From contig CAYYSG010000001.1 in assembly GCA_964474375.1 (NCBI GenBank), positions 18,559 to 82,558 of the forward strand: DNA of 64,000 bases, read 5' to 3'. A program made the position numbers and the translations under genes. Below are positions 6,326 to 38,348 of the stretch, piece after piece. Source of the stretch: an uncultured Candidatus Saccharibacteria bacterium (GTDB lineage Bacteria; Patescibacteriota; Minisyncoccia; Phycocordibacterales; UBA9973). The notes beneath the pieces are model-generated. The model was not told where the DNA came from, did not search any database, and was given only the letters and a program-made list of their open reading frames with translations. How positions within the stretch are numbered: position 1 is the first letter of the stretch; the number at the start of each line of letters is the position of its first letter.

Positions 6326-7414
6326 TTACTTTTTAGCGCACCCTGTCCATCCATATATGGAAAAATGTCTACCGGTAACCCAGCTGTATGTTCCGGCGCC
6401 TAGTCCTAGGTCTTTTGCTTTTTTGACCATTGCATCACCTGTTTGTCCTTCAAAGACAGTACACAGTTTAGATTTATTCGCTGATTGGTCTATATAAGTC
6501 AGGACATCGATATCGTTATACAAGTTACTATCAGTAAAAGCAAAGTCAACACATCTTCCAGTTTTGTGGCATGAGTTTTTGTGTTTTACGCTTTGAGGCA
6601 TTGCCTCGGTTATTCTATAGTTTCCTTTTATTTTAGAATTTTGGTCTAGTAGTTTTTTAAAAGCAGCCAGTCTTTCAGCTAGTTCTTTCGAAGCGTATTT
6701 GCCATTTTTTGTTTCCCATCCAGATATTGTTAAGTCGCTACAGTCCCCTGTAACTTTTTCATTAGGTTCTCCTTGGCAGGTATCCTTTACGCTTGTGGCT
6801 TTGTCGTAATTAAAGTCTTTTATGATATTTCCATCTTCACCATATGTAAAACTAACAACTGGCCAGGTTCTGGTATTTATTAAATTCCCCCCTATTCTTA
6901 TCTTCACTAAATCAGGATTAATAGTATAAAGTATCAAATAAGCACAAAACATGAGTATAAGTCCTGCTATTGCTGTAGTTATTTTACTTCTACTATCACT
7001 TTTCTTCCATACGGTATCTGACCCCATATACTGCACTCCATAAACCATGATCATGACTACAGTAATAGCACCTGCCATAGCTATAGCTAGCCTTATTATA
7101 AAGTTTACAAAGTCAGAGAAGCCGCCTGTCTCACCTTCTTCTTTTTCTTTGTCTGTTAGTTCTCTACAGCCACGGATACTACCATCAGCGTTGTATTCTG
7201 GTTTACCCGTATCACAAATCTTATCTATATTGCCTATTTTGTTTATTAGTTTGTATGAATCAGGTTTAAAATTTACATTATTTGTGTTTGTGGTGGCTTT
7301 GAGAGTTGTACTAGTATCAACATAGCTATTAGTTAGTACAGGAGTTTGAGCTACGGCTGCACTGCTTAGAATAAATCCCCAAAATAAAATAAAAATAAAT
7401 ACTTTATTCTTCAT
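6326..7414 (-). CDS. Fusion protein: signal peptide plus VirB2/TrbC-pilin-like two-helix membrane module, then a Cys-rich LAS/M15-type peptidase-like domain
   Basis: N-terminus carries a signal peptide and two hydrophobic helices (FVNFIIRLAIAMAGAITVVMIMVYGV; ITTAIAGLILMFCAYLILYTI). C-terminus has SCHKTGRCVDFA (SxHxxGxxxD, LAS metallopeptidase-like) and a later GRHFSIYGW His. Confidence 0.4.
   Translation of the reverse strand: MKNKVFIFILFWGFILSSAAVAQTPVLTNSYVDTSTTLKATTNTNNVNFKPDSYKLINKIGNIDKICDTGKPEYNADGSIRGCRELTDKEKEEGETGGFSDFVNFIIRLAIAMAGAITVVMIMVYGVQYMGSDTVWKKSDSRSKITTAIAGLILMFCAYLILYTINPDLVKIRIGGNLINTRTWPVVSFTYGEDGNIIKDFNYDKATSVKDTCQGEPNEKVTGDCSDLTISGWETKNGKYASKELAERLAAFKKLLDQNSKIKGNYRITEAMPQSVKHKNSCHKTGRCVDFAFTDSNLYNDIDVLTYIDQSANKSKLCTVFEGQTGDAMVKKAKDLGLGAGTYSWVTGRHFSIYGWTGCAKK
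6891..7123 (-). repeat. 233-bp direct repeat copy A (100 percent identical to 9403..9635)
   Basis: Read base by base: identical from cctattcttatcttcactaaatcagg to aagtcagagaagcc. Lies inside the pilin-like module coding region of 6326..7414. Confidence 0.85.
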
Positions 7415-9827: not shown

Positions 9828-10775
9828 TTAAAAATTAAGCTCCAATGCAGATTTGAATTCTTGGTATAGTGATCGAGGATTATCGTAATTTAGATTCAGG
9901 CGAACAACTCCACTGTCATCGGGCCGAATAAACGAAATCAGTTCTGGAATTTTTTGGTTATTTACATCTTCCCCACTAAGGTTCCAGACAATATTTGGAT
10001 TCAGTGTTTTATTTATACCCAAAGGAACACCAAAAACTGAAATAGTATTGTCATACCCAGCAACTTCATTTTTTATAGTGGTCCCTAGATTAAGTCCAAC
10101 CAAAGGACTGTATTCGTAGAATAATATTTTGTTTCTAGTAAAAGGTATACTAATAGAAGAAGTTTTGGTTTCAGAATTGGGTTTTATTACAGATACTGTT
10201 ATGTTTTCGGATCTTTCTATTTCTGTGTTTTTAAAATCAACAAAATTATTAGCACTGCTAGATTTCGTTTGGAGTGATTTGCCATTTCTTGCCCAAGAAT
10301 ATGAAACTTGTCCCCCACTAGGGTTCAGGACAGCTACGCGCAAATCATTTTCTCTTATTGGTATACGCTTACCCATGTAAAAAGGAATACTTTTACTATT
10401 CATTGCTTCCCAGATTAAGTCATAAGACATAGATGAAAAAGTTATATTTTTAGTAACCTTAGACCCACCAACTAGTGTTATTTCAGCATCAATGTTATTT
10501 TGTGCTCCTGGAGTATTACTTGATTCTATTGTAAATTCTTTTTCACCATAGCCAGATTTAGTCACACTGCCGTATGACCATTTAATATAAGCTAAATCTA
10601 AGTTTGTTTCGTAGCTTGTTAGTGTTGCTGTTACCTCCTCGCCTTCTCTTGGATCTACTGGATTAATACTGATGGATATATTAGGTTCAGATTCAAAAGT
10701 ACCCTGCGCCAGAGCACTGCCAGTTATAATAAATATAAATAATGCTATACCTAACAGGTATTTTTTCATATACAT
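9828..10775 (-). CDS. Secreted hypothetical protein within the T4SS-like cluster
   Basis: Signal peptide MYMKKYLLGIALFIFIITGSALAQ. No recognisable motifs. Confidence 0.5.
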   Translation of the reverse strand: MYMKKYLLGIALFIFIITGSALAQGTFESEPNISISINPVDPREGEEVTATLTSYETNLDLAYIKWSYGSVTKSGYGEKEFTIESSNTPGAQNNIDAEITLVGGSKVTKNITFSSMSYDLIWEAMNSKSIPFYMGKRIPIRENDLRVAVLNPSGGQVSYSWARNGKSLQTKSSSANNFVDFKNTEIERSENITVSVIKPNSETKTSSISIPFTRNKILFYEYSPLVGLNLGTTIKNEVAGYDNTISVFGVPLGINKTLNPNIVWNLSGEDVNNQKIPELISFIRPDDSGVVRLNLNYDNPRSLYQEFKSALELNF

Positions 10776-35998: not shown

Positions 35999-36718
35999 AT
36001 GAAAAAAATTCTCTCTATTTCATTTATAATAGTTTTAACTATTTTTATATCCGGAACCCTTTCTTATATAAAAGCCGCTTTCGTCGAGCCAGCTGGTAGT
36101 CCCCCGAATTCTAATACACCAGCCCCTGTTTTGCTTGGTGATAGTAATCTTTTTGCTTTTGTAAAACTTGGTAAATTAGGTATAACACGTGATGCATCTA
36201 CTGCCCCAGTTGAAAATGCAGCATTTGATAAAAACGTACTAGTTGTTGGCGGTCAATTAGCAACGGATTCATTAGCATCAAATGGTAATCTGACTATAAA
36301 TGCCGAACTTGAAACCAGCTCATCTTTAAAGGCATTGTTTGTGGGTGACCCTACACAGAATTCATTTATGCAAGTGAACCCTGATTCTAGTCCTAGAACA
36401 TTCTTAGTATCTTCACATACTCGTGCCCCAAGACTGGTCGCAGGCTCCAAAGGTGCTCCAGCTGGAGCGTATAACTTGTATTTAGCCGAAGGCAGTAATG
36501 CAACGAACCTTGGTAAAAATAATGACTACTGTGTTTTAACCAAAGATGAGCTTCAGAACAAAGGTTGTCCACATAATTATTCATATCGTAATGTGAATGT
36601 GGGTACATATTTAGGGCAAGTTATAGTTACCAGTAGTAGTGCTTCAACTGACGAGGTTGCATCTTGTTATATGGTTACACCATCAGCTACCCCTCGTAAC
36701 CTTAACCGATGTTATTAA
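35999..36718 (+). CDS. Secreted protein, paralog family member
   Basis: AAFVEPAGSPPNSNTPAPVLLGD...KLGKLG after the signal peptide. Confidence 0.55.
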   Translation: MKKILSISFIIVLTIFISGTLSYIKAAFVEPAGSPPNSNTPAPVLLGDSNLFAFVKLGKLGITRDASTAPVENAAFDKNVLVVGGQLATDSLASNGNLTINAELETSSSLKALFVGDPTQNSFMQVNPDSSPRTFLVSSHTRAPRLVAGSKGAPAGAYNLYLAEGSNATNLGKNNDYCVLTKDELQNKGCPHNYSYRNVNVGTYLGQVIVTSSSASTDEVASCYMVTPSATPRNLNRCY

Positions 36719-36732
36719 AATAAAAATACAAA

Positions 36733-36765
36733 ATCCCCTGACTTCATTGGTCAGGGGATTTTTAT
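36733..36765 (+). terminator. Rho-independent terminator (plus strand)
   Basis: atcccctga-cttcattgg-tcaggggat hairpin plus ttttt. Confidence 0.7.
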
Positions 36766-36795
36766 AAATAAAAAGTCCGGACATTTGTCCGGACT
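36766..36795 (-). terminator. Rho-independent terminator (minus strand)
   Basis: agtccggac-attt-gtccggact hairpin. The minus strand is followed by tttttattt. Confidence 0.7.
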
Positions 36796-36815: not shown

Positions 36816-38240
36816 TTATTCTACAACTAGTTTTGTTGGCGTGTAGCCAGCTAGCTGTATAAAATAAATCCCTTTGTTTAAGAACGATACATCTACGATT
36901 TGGTTTGTAATACCAGTCAGTACTATTTTACCGGTGATGTCTATTACTGTAAAAGTAAAGTCTTCCGGAGTACTAACGGTTACAAAACCAGTCGCAGGAT
37001 TTGGGTAAACAAGCAGTTTTGCTAATGACACATCATTAATACCAACATTTCTATCAGCAATTTTGCATATCATGTTGTCACCGAATGCAAATGTGTCAGT
37101 ACCAATACCGACGATCCTTTTAGGTGACCATGTGTAACCAAACTTTTGATAGTATTGGATACTATGCTCATCTTTTAATGGGGGCCATCCGTCTTCTGTT
37201 AAACGATAAACGGTAAAGAATTCATTTAACATTTCTCCTTTTACTGCGTCAAAGTATTGACCTTTCTGGTTTTTCCAATCAACCCAATAATAATGTCTGC
37301 CATGTTGATCAGTGGTGGGAAATCCGTATCCAATAATAGGTAAACTATCTATACTTTCCCATGTTGTGCCAGAAACCCATTTTTTGAGTTTGTTGGCTGA
37401 GCTTGTTGCATAGATTTCCCCATCAATATTCCGAACATAGATTCTATTAAATCCATCTTCTACTCCAGATAAATAAGACGTGTCATTATCGACATCAAAT
37501 ATAAATGAAGCTCCAGACATAGATGGTGAATGTCGCCCACCAAGGAAGAATTTACCATCTTTGTAAGCAATAGTCCCCATGGACATATGCCTATAGCCAG
37601 CAAAAGGTGTCATCGTCTTAATGTGCTGATACGTTTTGGCATCGTACACATAAGCTGAATCAAAGTAGTACCAATCATCTACTCCCACAGTTTTAATGAA
37701 TTTAGATGTAATAGTGATTATGTATTTGTCACTTTCACAAACTAACCTCATCATATCTTTGGGATTTTTGTAAAAATTAAGTTTTGTGTAGTTTATGTTG
37801 TCGTCAACAATAACTGCTTTGTAAATTACATTACTGTAACTTTCAACCACAAAAAATGTATTTCTATCATAACCTTTGTAGAATATTGGAGATAACAATG
37901 GTCCTTGGTTCCAGTTAGATTTCAATATGAAATCCTTGGTTTTTTTAGACCAGAGTACAATTGGGTCCCCTTTTTCTTTGTTGGAAAATACGAGTTCATT
38001 ATACACAGGGTTTGGTTCAGAAAATAAATTAGACTGAGCCCCTATAATAATAAAATCATTTCTCTCTTCGAATAAAGTTGTACCCCAGTTTTGGTCATCA
38101 CATGACAAGATGTACTCACCCATAGAATAGCTCTGCCATTCTTTGGTGTAGTCTTGTGCTGTTGCTTGTTTACTTGTTAAAGTGCTCAGGATGAACAGTA
38201 TTAATACTGCTACAAACCTGAATTTGTATAAGTTTTTCAT
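36816..38240 (-). CDS. Secreted protein with C-terminal T9SS-type (Por_Secre_tail-like) sorting domain
   Basis: Signal peptide. C-terminus LLVYPNPATGFVTVSTPEDFTFTVIDITGKIVLTGITNQIVDVSFLNKGIYFIQLAGYTPTKLVVE matches the TIGR04183-type pattern (VYPNPA...V.D..GK.V......VDVS.L..GIYF..L...TKLV). Confidence 0.6.
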   Translation of the reverse strand: MKNLYKFRFVAVLILFILSTLTSKQATAQDYTKEWQSYSMGEYILSCDDQNWGTTLFEERNDFIIIGAQSNLFSEPNPVYNELVFSNKEKGDPIVLWSKKTKDFILKSNWNQGPLLSPIFYKGYDRNTFFVVESYSNVIYKAVIVDDNINYTKLNFYKNPKDMMRLVCESDKYIITITSKFIKTVGVDDWYYFDSAYVYDAKTYQHIKTMTPFAGYRHMSMGTIAYKDGKFFLGGRHSPSMSGASFIFDVDNDTSYLSGVEDGFNRIYVRNIDGEIYATSSANKLKKWVSGTTWESIDSLPIIGYGFPTTDQHGRHYYWVDWKNQKGQYFDAVKGEMLNEFFTVYRLTEDGWPPLKDEHSIQYYQKFGYTWSPKRIVGIGTDTFAFGDNMICKIADRNVGINDVSLAKLLVYPNPATGFVTVSTPEDFTFTVIDITGKIVLTGITNQIVDVSFLNKGIYFIQLAGYTPTKLVVE

Positions 38241-38348
38241 GATTCTGTATATTTTAAATTTATTAATTACATTATACCATTTGACAGGCTGTCAAACCAG
38301 TCCTATACACACTATGTGGATATCCTATATACGTGATATAATATAGGT

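What the first reader, a model, noticed from the sequence alone, without database searches (positions are those of the whole stretch)
36816..38240. T9SS-type C-terminal sorting domain in a genome whose other features are not Bacteroidota-like
The final ~65 aa (VYPNPATGFVTV...VDVSFLNKGIYFIQL...TKLVVE) fit the Por_Secre_tail/TIGR04183 pattern closely. T9SS CTDs are normally confined to Bacteroidota and relatives, where PorU cleaves and attaches the cargo. Here the genome shows sigma70-type promoters, type IV pili and a T4SS-like system. The protein may have been acquired horizontally, or the fold may have been co-opted as a generic beta-sandwich.
Basis: partly seen in the sequence, partly recalled or inferred. 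Interest (0 to 1): 0.55.

Follow-up and report, generated by a model that had tools for sequence, protein, structure and literature searches.

The report
Orphan T9SS sorting domain in Saccharibacteria
A small clade of Saccharibacteria, ultrasmall bacteria thought to lack an outer membrane, carries a fast-evolving secreted protein that ends in a genuine, well-conserved copy of the sorting tag Bacteroidota use for their outer-membrane type IX secretion system, so here the tag most likely does a different job.

Summary
ORF 36816-38240 (-) encodes a 474-aa protein. Its last ~79 residues score above the curated cut-offs of PF18962 (40.7 bits, cut-off 27) and TIGR04183 (35.2, cut-off 23). They model as a 7-stranded beta-sandwich whose best whole-domain match is a Flavobacterium T9SS cargo CTD (8glk_D).

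The genome is not Bacteroidota. The only close relative among the GTDB species genomes is a 'Candidatus Saccharibacteria' MAG. The window carries dnaA/dnaN, type IV pilus genes and a monoderm-type T4SS, and no T9SS gene.

The gene sits in the same slot (ArgRS ... PilB/PilC) in three independent assemblies, so it is not an assembly artefact or a recent insertion. Its composition matches its neighbours. It evolves fast (48% and 27.5% identity, against 70-98% for flanking housekeeping genes), yet the CTD is always its best-conserved part. The beta-propeller-like N-domain is nearly an orphan, with three members among 1.84 billion representatives. Every organism-named CTD relative is Bacteroidota.

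Best reading: an old Bacteroidota-derived CTD, exported by Sec alone and kept for a T9SS-independent role. Whole-genome absence of T9SS, and how common CTDs are across CPR, could not be tested. Moderate interest.

The parts
36816..38240 (-). Complete ORF, 474 aa plus stop: a secreted beta-propeller-like protein with a C-terminal T9SS type-A CTD-family domain
   Evidence: ORF list. An identical protein is on record, annotated only with PF18962. Orthologues P0002 (48% identity) and P0007 (27.5%) occupy the same syntenic slot.
38157..38240 (-). Sec-type signal peptide, aa 1-28 (MKNLYKFR / FVAVLILFILSTL / TSKQATA). Predicted SPase I cut is ATA|QD.
   Evidence: By inspection: a basic n-region, a hydrophobic core (12-residue hydropathy maximum 2.98) and an A-x-A site. 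No signal-peptide predictor was available. The region is 75% identical in P0002.
37056..38156 (-). N-terminal passenger domain, aa 29-395: all-beta, beta-propeller-like, a near-orphan family
36819..37055 (-). Linker (DRNVGINDVSLAKL) plus type-A CTD, aa 396-474. The Pfam match covers aa 411-465, which is 36846-37010.
   Evidence: This is the most conserved part of the protein in all three pairwise comparisons: 74/42/45% against 44/25/30% for the N-domain. The VGINDV-type linker also occurs just before the CTD in Bacteroidota hits such as P0024, P0027 and P0031.
38271..38279 (-). Extended -10 promoter element TGGTATAAT, 31 nt upstream of the ATG. The TTGACA at 38290-38295 is only 13 nt away, too close to be a canonical -35.
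   Evidence: Read directly from the sequence. The consensus scanner did not call it because the -35 spacing is wrong. This is a consensus match only.
36730..36795 (-). Two terminator-like hairpins, each followed by a T-run (36795-36774 and 36762-36730), just after the stop codon. They lie in the convergent gap with the + strand gene that ends at 36718.
   Evidence: Terminator scan: 2 found against 0.9 +/- 1.0 expected in shuffles.

Best explanation
This is a lineage-specific, fast-evolving extracellular protein of a narrow clade of Saccharibacteria (CPR/Patescibacteria). A Sec signal peptide takes it across the single membrane, and signal peptidase I cuts it after ATA. The mature protein is a beta-propeller-like domain followed by an Ig-like beta-sandwich that is a true homologue of the Bacteroidota type-A T9SS C-terminal domain. 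The CTD, possibly with the whole gene, was most likely captured long ago from a Bacteroidota donor, probably a Flavobacteriia-like one, and became fixed beside the type IV pilus locus. The organism is expected to have neither an outer membrane nor a T9SS. The CTD therefore cannot act as a T9SS export or PorU-cleavage signal in the producer cell. It is instead kept under purifying selection as a folded module with another job, most plausibly holding the protein at the cell surface or binding a ligand, while the variable propeller faces the environment or the host.

Shown: domain identity, taxonomy of the nearest relative, conserved synteny, rate asymmetry between domains, native composition, and no T9SS genes in about 115 kb examined.

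Inferred: Sec export, HGT origin and donor, absence of T9SS genome-wide, and the new role of the CTD.
For: CTD identity:
- HMM scores exceed the curated cut-offs.
- The family profile hits solved CTDs in the PDB.
- The CTD model is confident (pLDDT 87.1) and matches the NucA, PorU, RgpB and RemA CTDs.
- All family-invariant residues are kept. These include the Gly at the start of beta4 and a Lys in the last strand, the two elements shown to matter for T9SS function in PMC11285876.

Non-Bacteroidota host genome:
- The relative's record is titled Candidatus Saccharibacteria.
- Flanking housekeeping proteins are 70-98% identical to that genome and to a third assembly.
- The T4SS parts (PrgI, VirB4-like ATPase) are of the monoderm type, and PilB/PilC/pilins are present.
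- Patescibacteria are proposed to lack an outer membrane (PMC12102498).

Not an artefact and not recent:
- Gene order is identical in three assemblies: ClpP-TF-PPase-NusA-p645-ArgRS-p362-[gene]-p239-p102-p303-PilB-PilC.
- GC (0.355), GC3 (0.325) and codon usage are typical of the window.

Functional retention:
- The ORF is intact in all three genomes, with its own promoter-like element and terminators.
- The CTD is consistently more conserved than the passenger domain.

Bacteroidota affinity of the CTD:
- 12 of 12 organism-named hits are Bacteroidota, mostly Flavobacteriales.
- The contig of hit P0009 also encodes a SprB/CHU_C protein, a Bacteroidota-type family. The contig of hit P0010 carries a second CTD protein and a large-genome gene set unlike CPR.
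- Bacteroidota are among the more frequent non-CPR gene donors to Patescibacteria (PMC12455944).

No T9SS component turned up among about 57 window ORFs scanned. Each Saccharibacteria locus examined has only this one CTD.
Against: - Whole genomes could not be scanned, so the absence of a T9SS and of an outer membrane rests on about 115 kb plus published generalisations.
- Taxonomy rests on one submitter-assigned record title plus gene content. The window has no rRNA.
- The new role of the CTD is pure inference. The protein has no LPXTG, lipobox or known wall-binding motif that would explain surface retention.
- Higher conservation of the CTD could simply reflect diversifying selection on the propeller, not a special role for the CTD.
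- The HGT direction and donor are not established by a phylogeny, because a 66-aa domain resolves poorly. The passenger domain has no detectable Bacteroidota homologue.
- The full-length structural model is of low confidence.
Confidence: 0.6

Rival explanations
1. Host-directed mimicry. The Saccharibacterium lives on a T9SS-bearing Bacteroidota host. Its CTD keeps the ancestral binding activity and docks onto the host's surface-exposed PorV or attachment complex, tethering the epibiont or planting the propeller on the host surface.
For: The T9SS-relevant elements (beta4 Gly, C-terminal-strand Lys, PNP, GxY) and even the Flavobacteriia-style VGINDV linker are retained. The CTD is the best-conserved part. 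The gene sits beside the type IV pilus locus; the role of such pili in host attachment in Saccharibacteria is from my own knowledge, not tested here. The fast-evolving passenger fits a host-interface arms race. The nearest CTDs are all Flavobacteriales/Bacteroidota. Bacteroidota share genes and co-occur with Patescibacteria (PMC12455944).
Against: There is no information on the host of these genomes. From my own knowledge, cultured Saccharibacteria grow on Actinobacteria. Nothing shows that an externally supplied CTD can bind PorV. The conserved residues are equally explained by fold stability. The held literature contains no precedent.
Confidence: 0.07
2. The CTD is a sorting or anchoring signal for a different, still unknown system of CPR bacteria, a functional analogue of PorU or sortase in a monoderm envelope.
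For: The C-terminal module is strongly conserved at the very end of a Sec-exported protein. Other C-terminal sorting signals are known from my own knowledge (LPXTG, PEP-CTERM, PGF-CTERM).
Against: There is only one CTD protein per roughly 20-64 kb examined, and none elsewhere in the loci, whereas dedicated sorting systems usually serve many substrates. No candidate processing enzyme lies nearby: the neighbours p362, p239, p102 and p303 have no family match. The domain is a folded 7-strand sandwich, not a short peptide signal.
Confidence: 0.1
3. The tail is a non-functional relic. The CTD is evolutionary baggage from a transferred gene and only the propeller matters.
For: The cognate machinery is expected to be absent. 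The family is tiny and lineage-restricted.
Against: The CTD is more conserved than the passenger in all three comparisons, down to 27.5% overall identity. Every family-invariant residue is intact and the model is confident. A useless 79-aa tail would be expected to decay or be lost in a streamlined genome.
Confidence: 0.1
4. The protein is an ordinary T9SS cargo. Either the organism has an outer membrane and a T9SS encoded elsewhere, or the contig is really from an FCB-group bacterium.
For: Only about 64 kb of this genome was available. Published work reports that CTD proteins and T9SS genes co-occur (PMC11285876).
Against: The closest genome is labelled Saccharibacteria. The window holds the replication origin region, a monoderm-type T4SS, RNase Y and type IV pili, with no secretin gene among the ORFs scanned and no T9SS, TonB or Sus-like gene. 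T9SS genes are reported absent outside the FCB group.
Confidence: 0.03
5. The gene is an assembly or binning chimera, a Bacteroidota gene spliced into a CPR contig.
For: All the data are metagenomic.
Against: The same gene sits in the same slot in four contigs from three organisms and two assembly pipelines (Logan, NCBI MAG, ENA). Divergence at the DNA level rules out a shared artefact. The composition is native.
Confidence: 0.02

Closest known systems
Type-A T9SS C-terminal domains of Flavobacteriia cargo proteins (Pfam PF18962 / TIGR04183), for example the Flavobacterium johnsoniae NucA and RemA CTDs in PDB 8GLK and 8GL6
   Same: Sequence family membership is above the curated cut-offs. The domain lies at the extreme C-terminus behind a Sec signal peptide. 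It has the 7-stranded Ig-like sandwich (TM 0.75-0.79 to 8glk_D) and the conserved V-Y-P-N-P, Gly(beta4), L..G-x-Y-F and last-strand Lys. It also has the same VGINDV-type linker as several Flavobacteriales hits.
   Different: The producer is a Saccharibacterium, expected to have no outer membrane and no T9SS. No T9SS gene lies in the region, and there is one CTD protein per locus instead of the tens per genome reported for T9SS-bearing species. Cleavage and A-LPS attachment by PorU cannot be assumed.
Porphyromonas gingivalis RgpB, PorU and PorZ CTDs (PDB 7PQ4, 6ZA2)
   Same: Same fold, recovered by Foldseek. The two elements shown experimentally to be needed for secretion, the C-terminal motif with Lys and the Gly of the beta3-beta4 loop, have counterparts here.
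   Different: Sequence similarity is much lower than to the Flavobacteriia CTDs. CTDs are not freely interchangeable even between Bacteroidota species (PMC11285876), so functional equivalence cannot be assumed.
CTD-tagged beta-propeller surface proteins of Bacteroidota (BNR/Ycf48-like, FG-GAP and SGL propellers fused to PF18962, such as hits P0003, P0004, P0005 and P0006)
   Same: The overall architecture is the same: signal peptide, then a roughly 350-aa beta-propeller, then a type-A CTD. These proteins carry the CTDs closest to the query.
   Different: No sequence or profile similarity between the passenger domains could be detected (hhalign probability below 1%). The query's propeller family has only three known members.
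Generic Ig-like accessory domains of secreted enzymes in monoderm bacteria, such as the Ig-like domain of Alicyclobacillus Cel9A (PDB 3GZK, 5E2J)
   Same: A similar small beta-sandwich that Foldseek ranks alongside the CTDs. It shows that such a fold can work as a plain structural module in bacteria without a T9SS.
   Different: There is no sequence-family relationship. The query is specifically a Por_Secre_tail member.

Membership tests
Por_Secre_tail / TIGR04183 type-A CTD (domain family) | Profile-HMM score above the curated family threshold | tested here: met
   PF18962 scores 40.7 bits against a cut-off of 27. TIGR04183 scores 35.2 bits against 23.
Por_Secre_tail / TIGR04183 type-A CTD (domain family) | Located at the extreme C-terminus of a protein that has an N-terminal Sec signal peptide | tested here: met
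   The domain spans aa 409-474 of 474. The N-terminus MKNLYKFRFVAVLILFILSTLTSKQATA|QD was judged a signal peptide by inspection only, since no predictor was available.
Por_Secre_tail / TIGR04183 type-A CTD (domain family) | Compact 7-stranded Ig-like beta-sandwich | tested here: met
   The AF2 model has pLDDT 87.1 and seven strands. The best whole-domain match is 8glk_D, a T9SS cargo CTD (TM 0.75/0.79); the PorU, RgpB and RemA CTDs are also hit.
Por_Secre_tail / TIGR04183 type-A CTD (domain family) | Conserved sequence elements: PNP motif, Gly at the start of beta4, GxY motif, Lys in the last strand | tested here: met
   Y412-P-N-P415, G437, G457-I-Y459 and K470 are present. All invariant columns of the 60-CTD alignment are kept. 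In orthologue P0007 the Lys is shifted by 2-3 positions.
T9SS cargo (functional class: secreted and processed by a type IX secretion system) | The same genome encodes the T9SS core (GldK/L/M/N or PorK/L/M/N, SprA/Sov, PorV, PorU and others) | tested here: inconclusive
   None was found among about 57 ORFs of the 64-kb window or in the precomputed Pfam tables of the relatives' loci.
T9SS cargo (functional class: secreted and processed by a type IX secretion system) | Producer is a diderm of the FCB group (Bacteroidota and relatives) | tested here: not met
   The nearest genome is titled Candidatus Saccharibacteria, phylum Candidatus Saccharimonadota. The T4SS is of the monoderm type. The literature proposes that Patescibacteria lack an outer membrane (PMC12102498) and reports T9SS genes absent outside the FCB group (PMC11285876).
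T9SS cargo (functional class: secreted and processed by a type IX secretion system) | CTD removed by PorU, and the cargo released or linked to anionic LPS | not testable with these tools
   This needs proteomics or biochemistry.
T9SS cargo (functional class: secreted and processed by a type IX secretion system) | Many CTD proteins per genome (the TIGR04183 description cites about 20 or more; from my own knowledge) | tested here: inconclusive
   There is exactly one CTD in 64 kb of window and one in each 21-kb relative locus, found with a CTD profile on six-frame ORFs. No whole-genome count was possible.

The most novel reading that the evidence does not exclude
An episymbiotic Saccharibacterium has captured the secretion tag of its Bacteroidota host or neighbour. 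It displays the tag on a hypervariable beta-propeller as a molecular key that docks onto the host's surface-exposed T9SS shuttle or attachment proteins (PorV, PorU, PorZ). This would be adhesion, or host-surface decoration, by mimicry of the host's own cargo.
Probability: 0.07. Interest if true: 0.85.

Novelty: new variant of a known kind. Interest (0 to 1): 0.48.

Why it matters
The field's working rule, as stated in PMC11285876, is that T9SS genes and CTD-tagged proteins co-occur and are confined to the FCB group. A conserved, vertically maintained type-A CTD in a Saccharibacteria clade is a clean counter-example. It shows either that the CTD fold can be domesticated for a T9SS-independent purpose in a monoderm envelope, or, more interestingly, that an epibiont exploits the secretion tag of a Bacteroidota partner.

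It also records an old gene flow from Bacteroidota into CPR bacteria, into a locus beside the type IV pilus genes. It gives a concrete candidate surface or host-interface protein, fast-evolving with a single conserved module, for a lineage whose host range is unknown.

On the practical side, automatic annotation will label this protein 'T9SS type A sorting domain-containing protein'. That label should not be read as evidence of a T9SS in such genomes.

Tried and rejected
1. Q-rule argument. The mature N-terminus is Gln in all three orthologues (ATA|QD, AMA|QS, LTG|QN), matching the Bacteroidetes-specific Q-rule (PMC5837995). I considered this as proof of whole-gene transfer. I rejected it as diagnostic because at least two other predicted secreted proteins in the same window also have Q at +1: 6326-7414 (AVA|QT) and 9828-10775 (ALA|QG).
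2. A CTD-only search of the 5.8-billion-protein set gave only 4 candidates and no hit. That search was wasted. The profile search with relaxed E-value replaced it.
3. Homology of the passenger domain to the passengers of the nearest CTD proteins (BNR/Ycf48, FG-GAP, SGL and others) was tested by hhalign. All probabilities were below 1%. BLASTP extensions upstream of the CTD were not convincing.
4. The full-length AF2 model from 3 sequences is poor (pLDDT 52.9). Only 'beta-propeller-like' is claimed from it.
5. Walking along the source contig with exact-protein look-ups found only short Logan contigs or nothing. A whole-genome T9SS scan was therefore impossible.
6. Organism names from 90%-identity clusters of housekeeping proteins: none carried a name.
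7. Sample metadata (SRP329715, SRR15237806, ERZ4210451) were not mentioned in any held paper.
8. Literature on T9SS or CTD in CPR, Patescibacteria, Saccharibacteria or DPANN: nothing relevant in the held library.
9. A fold search against AFDB50, which would have given organism names for CTD-like folds, could not be run because the library was unavailable.
10. A compositional HGT signal was looked for and not found.
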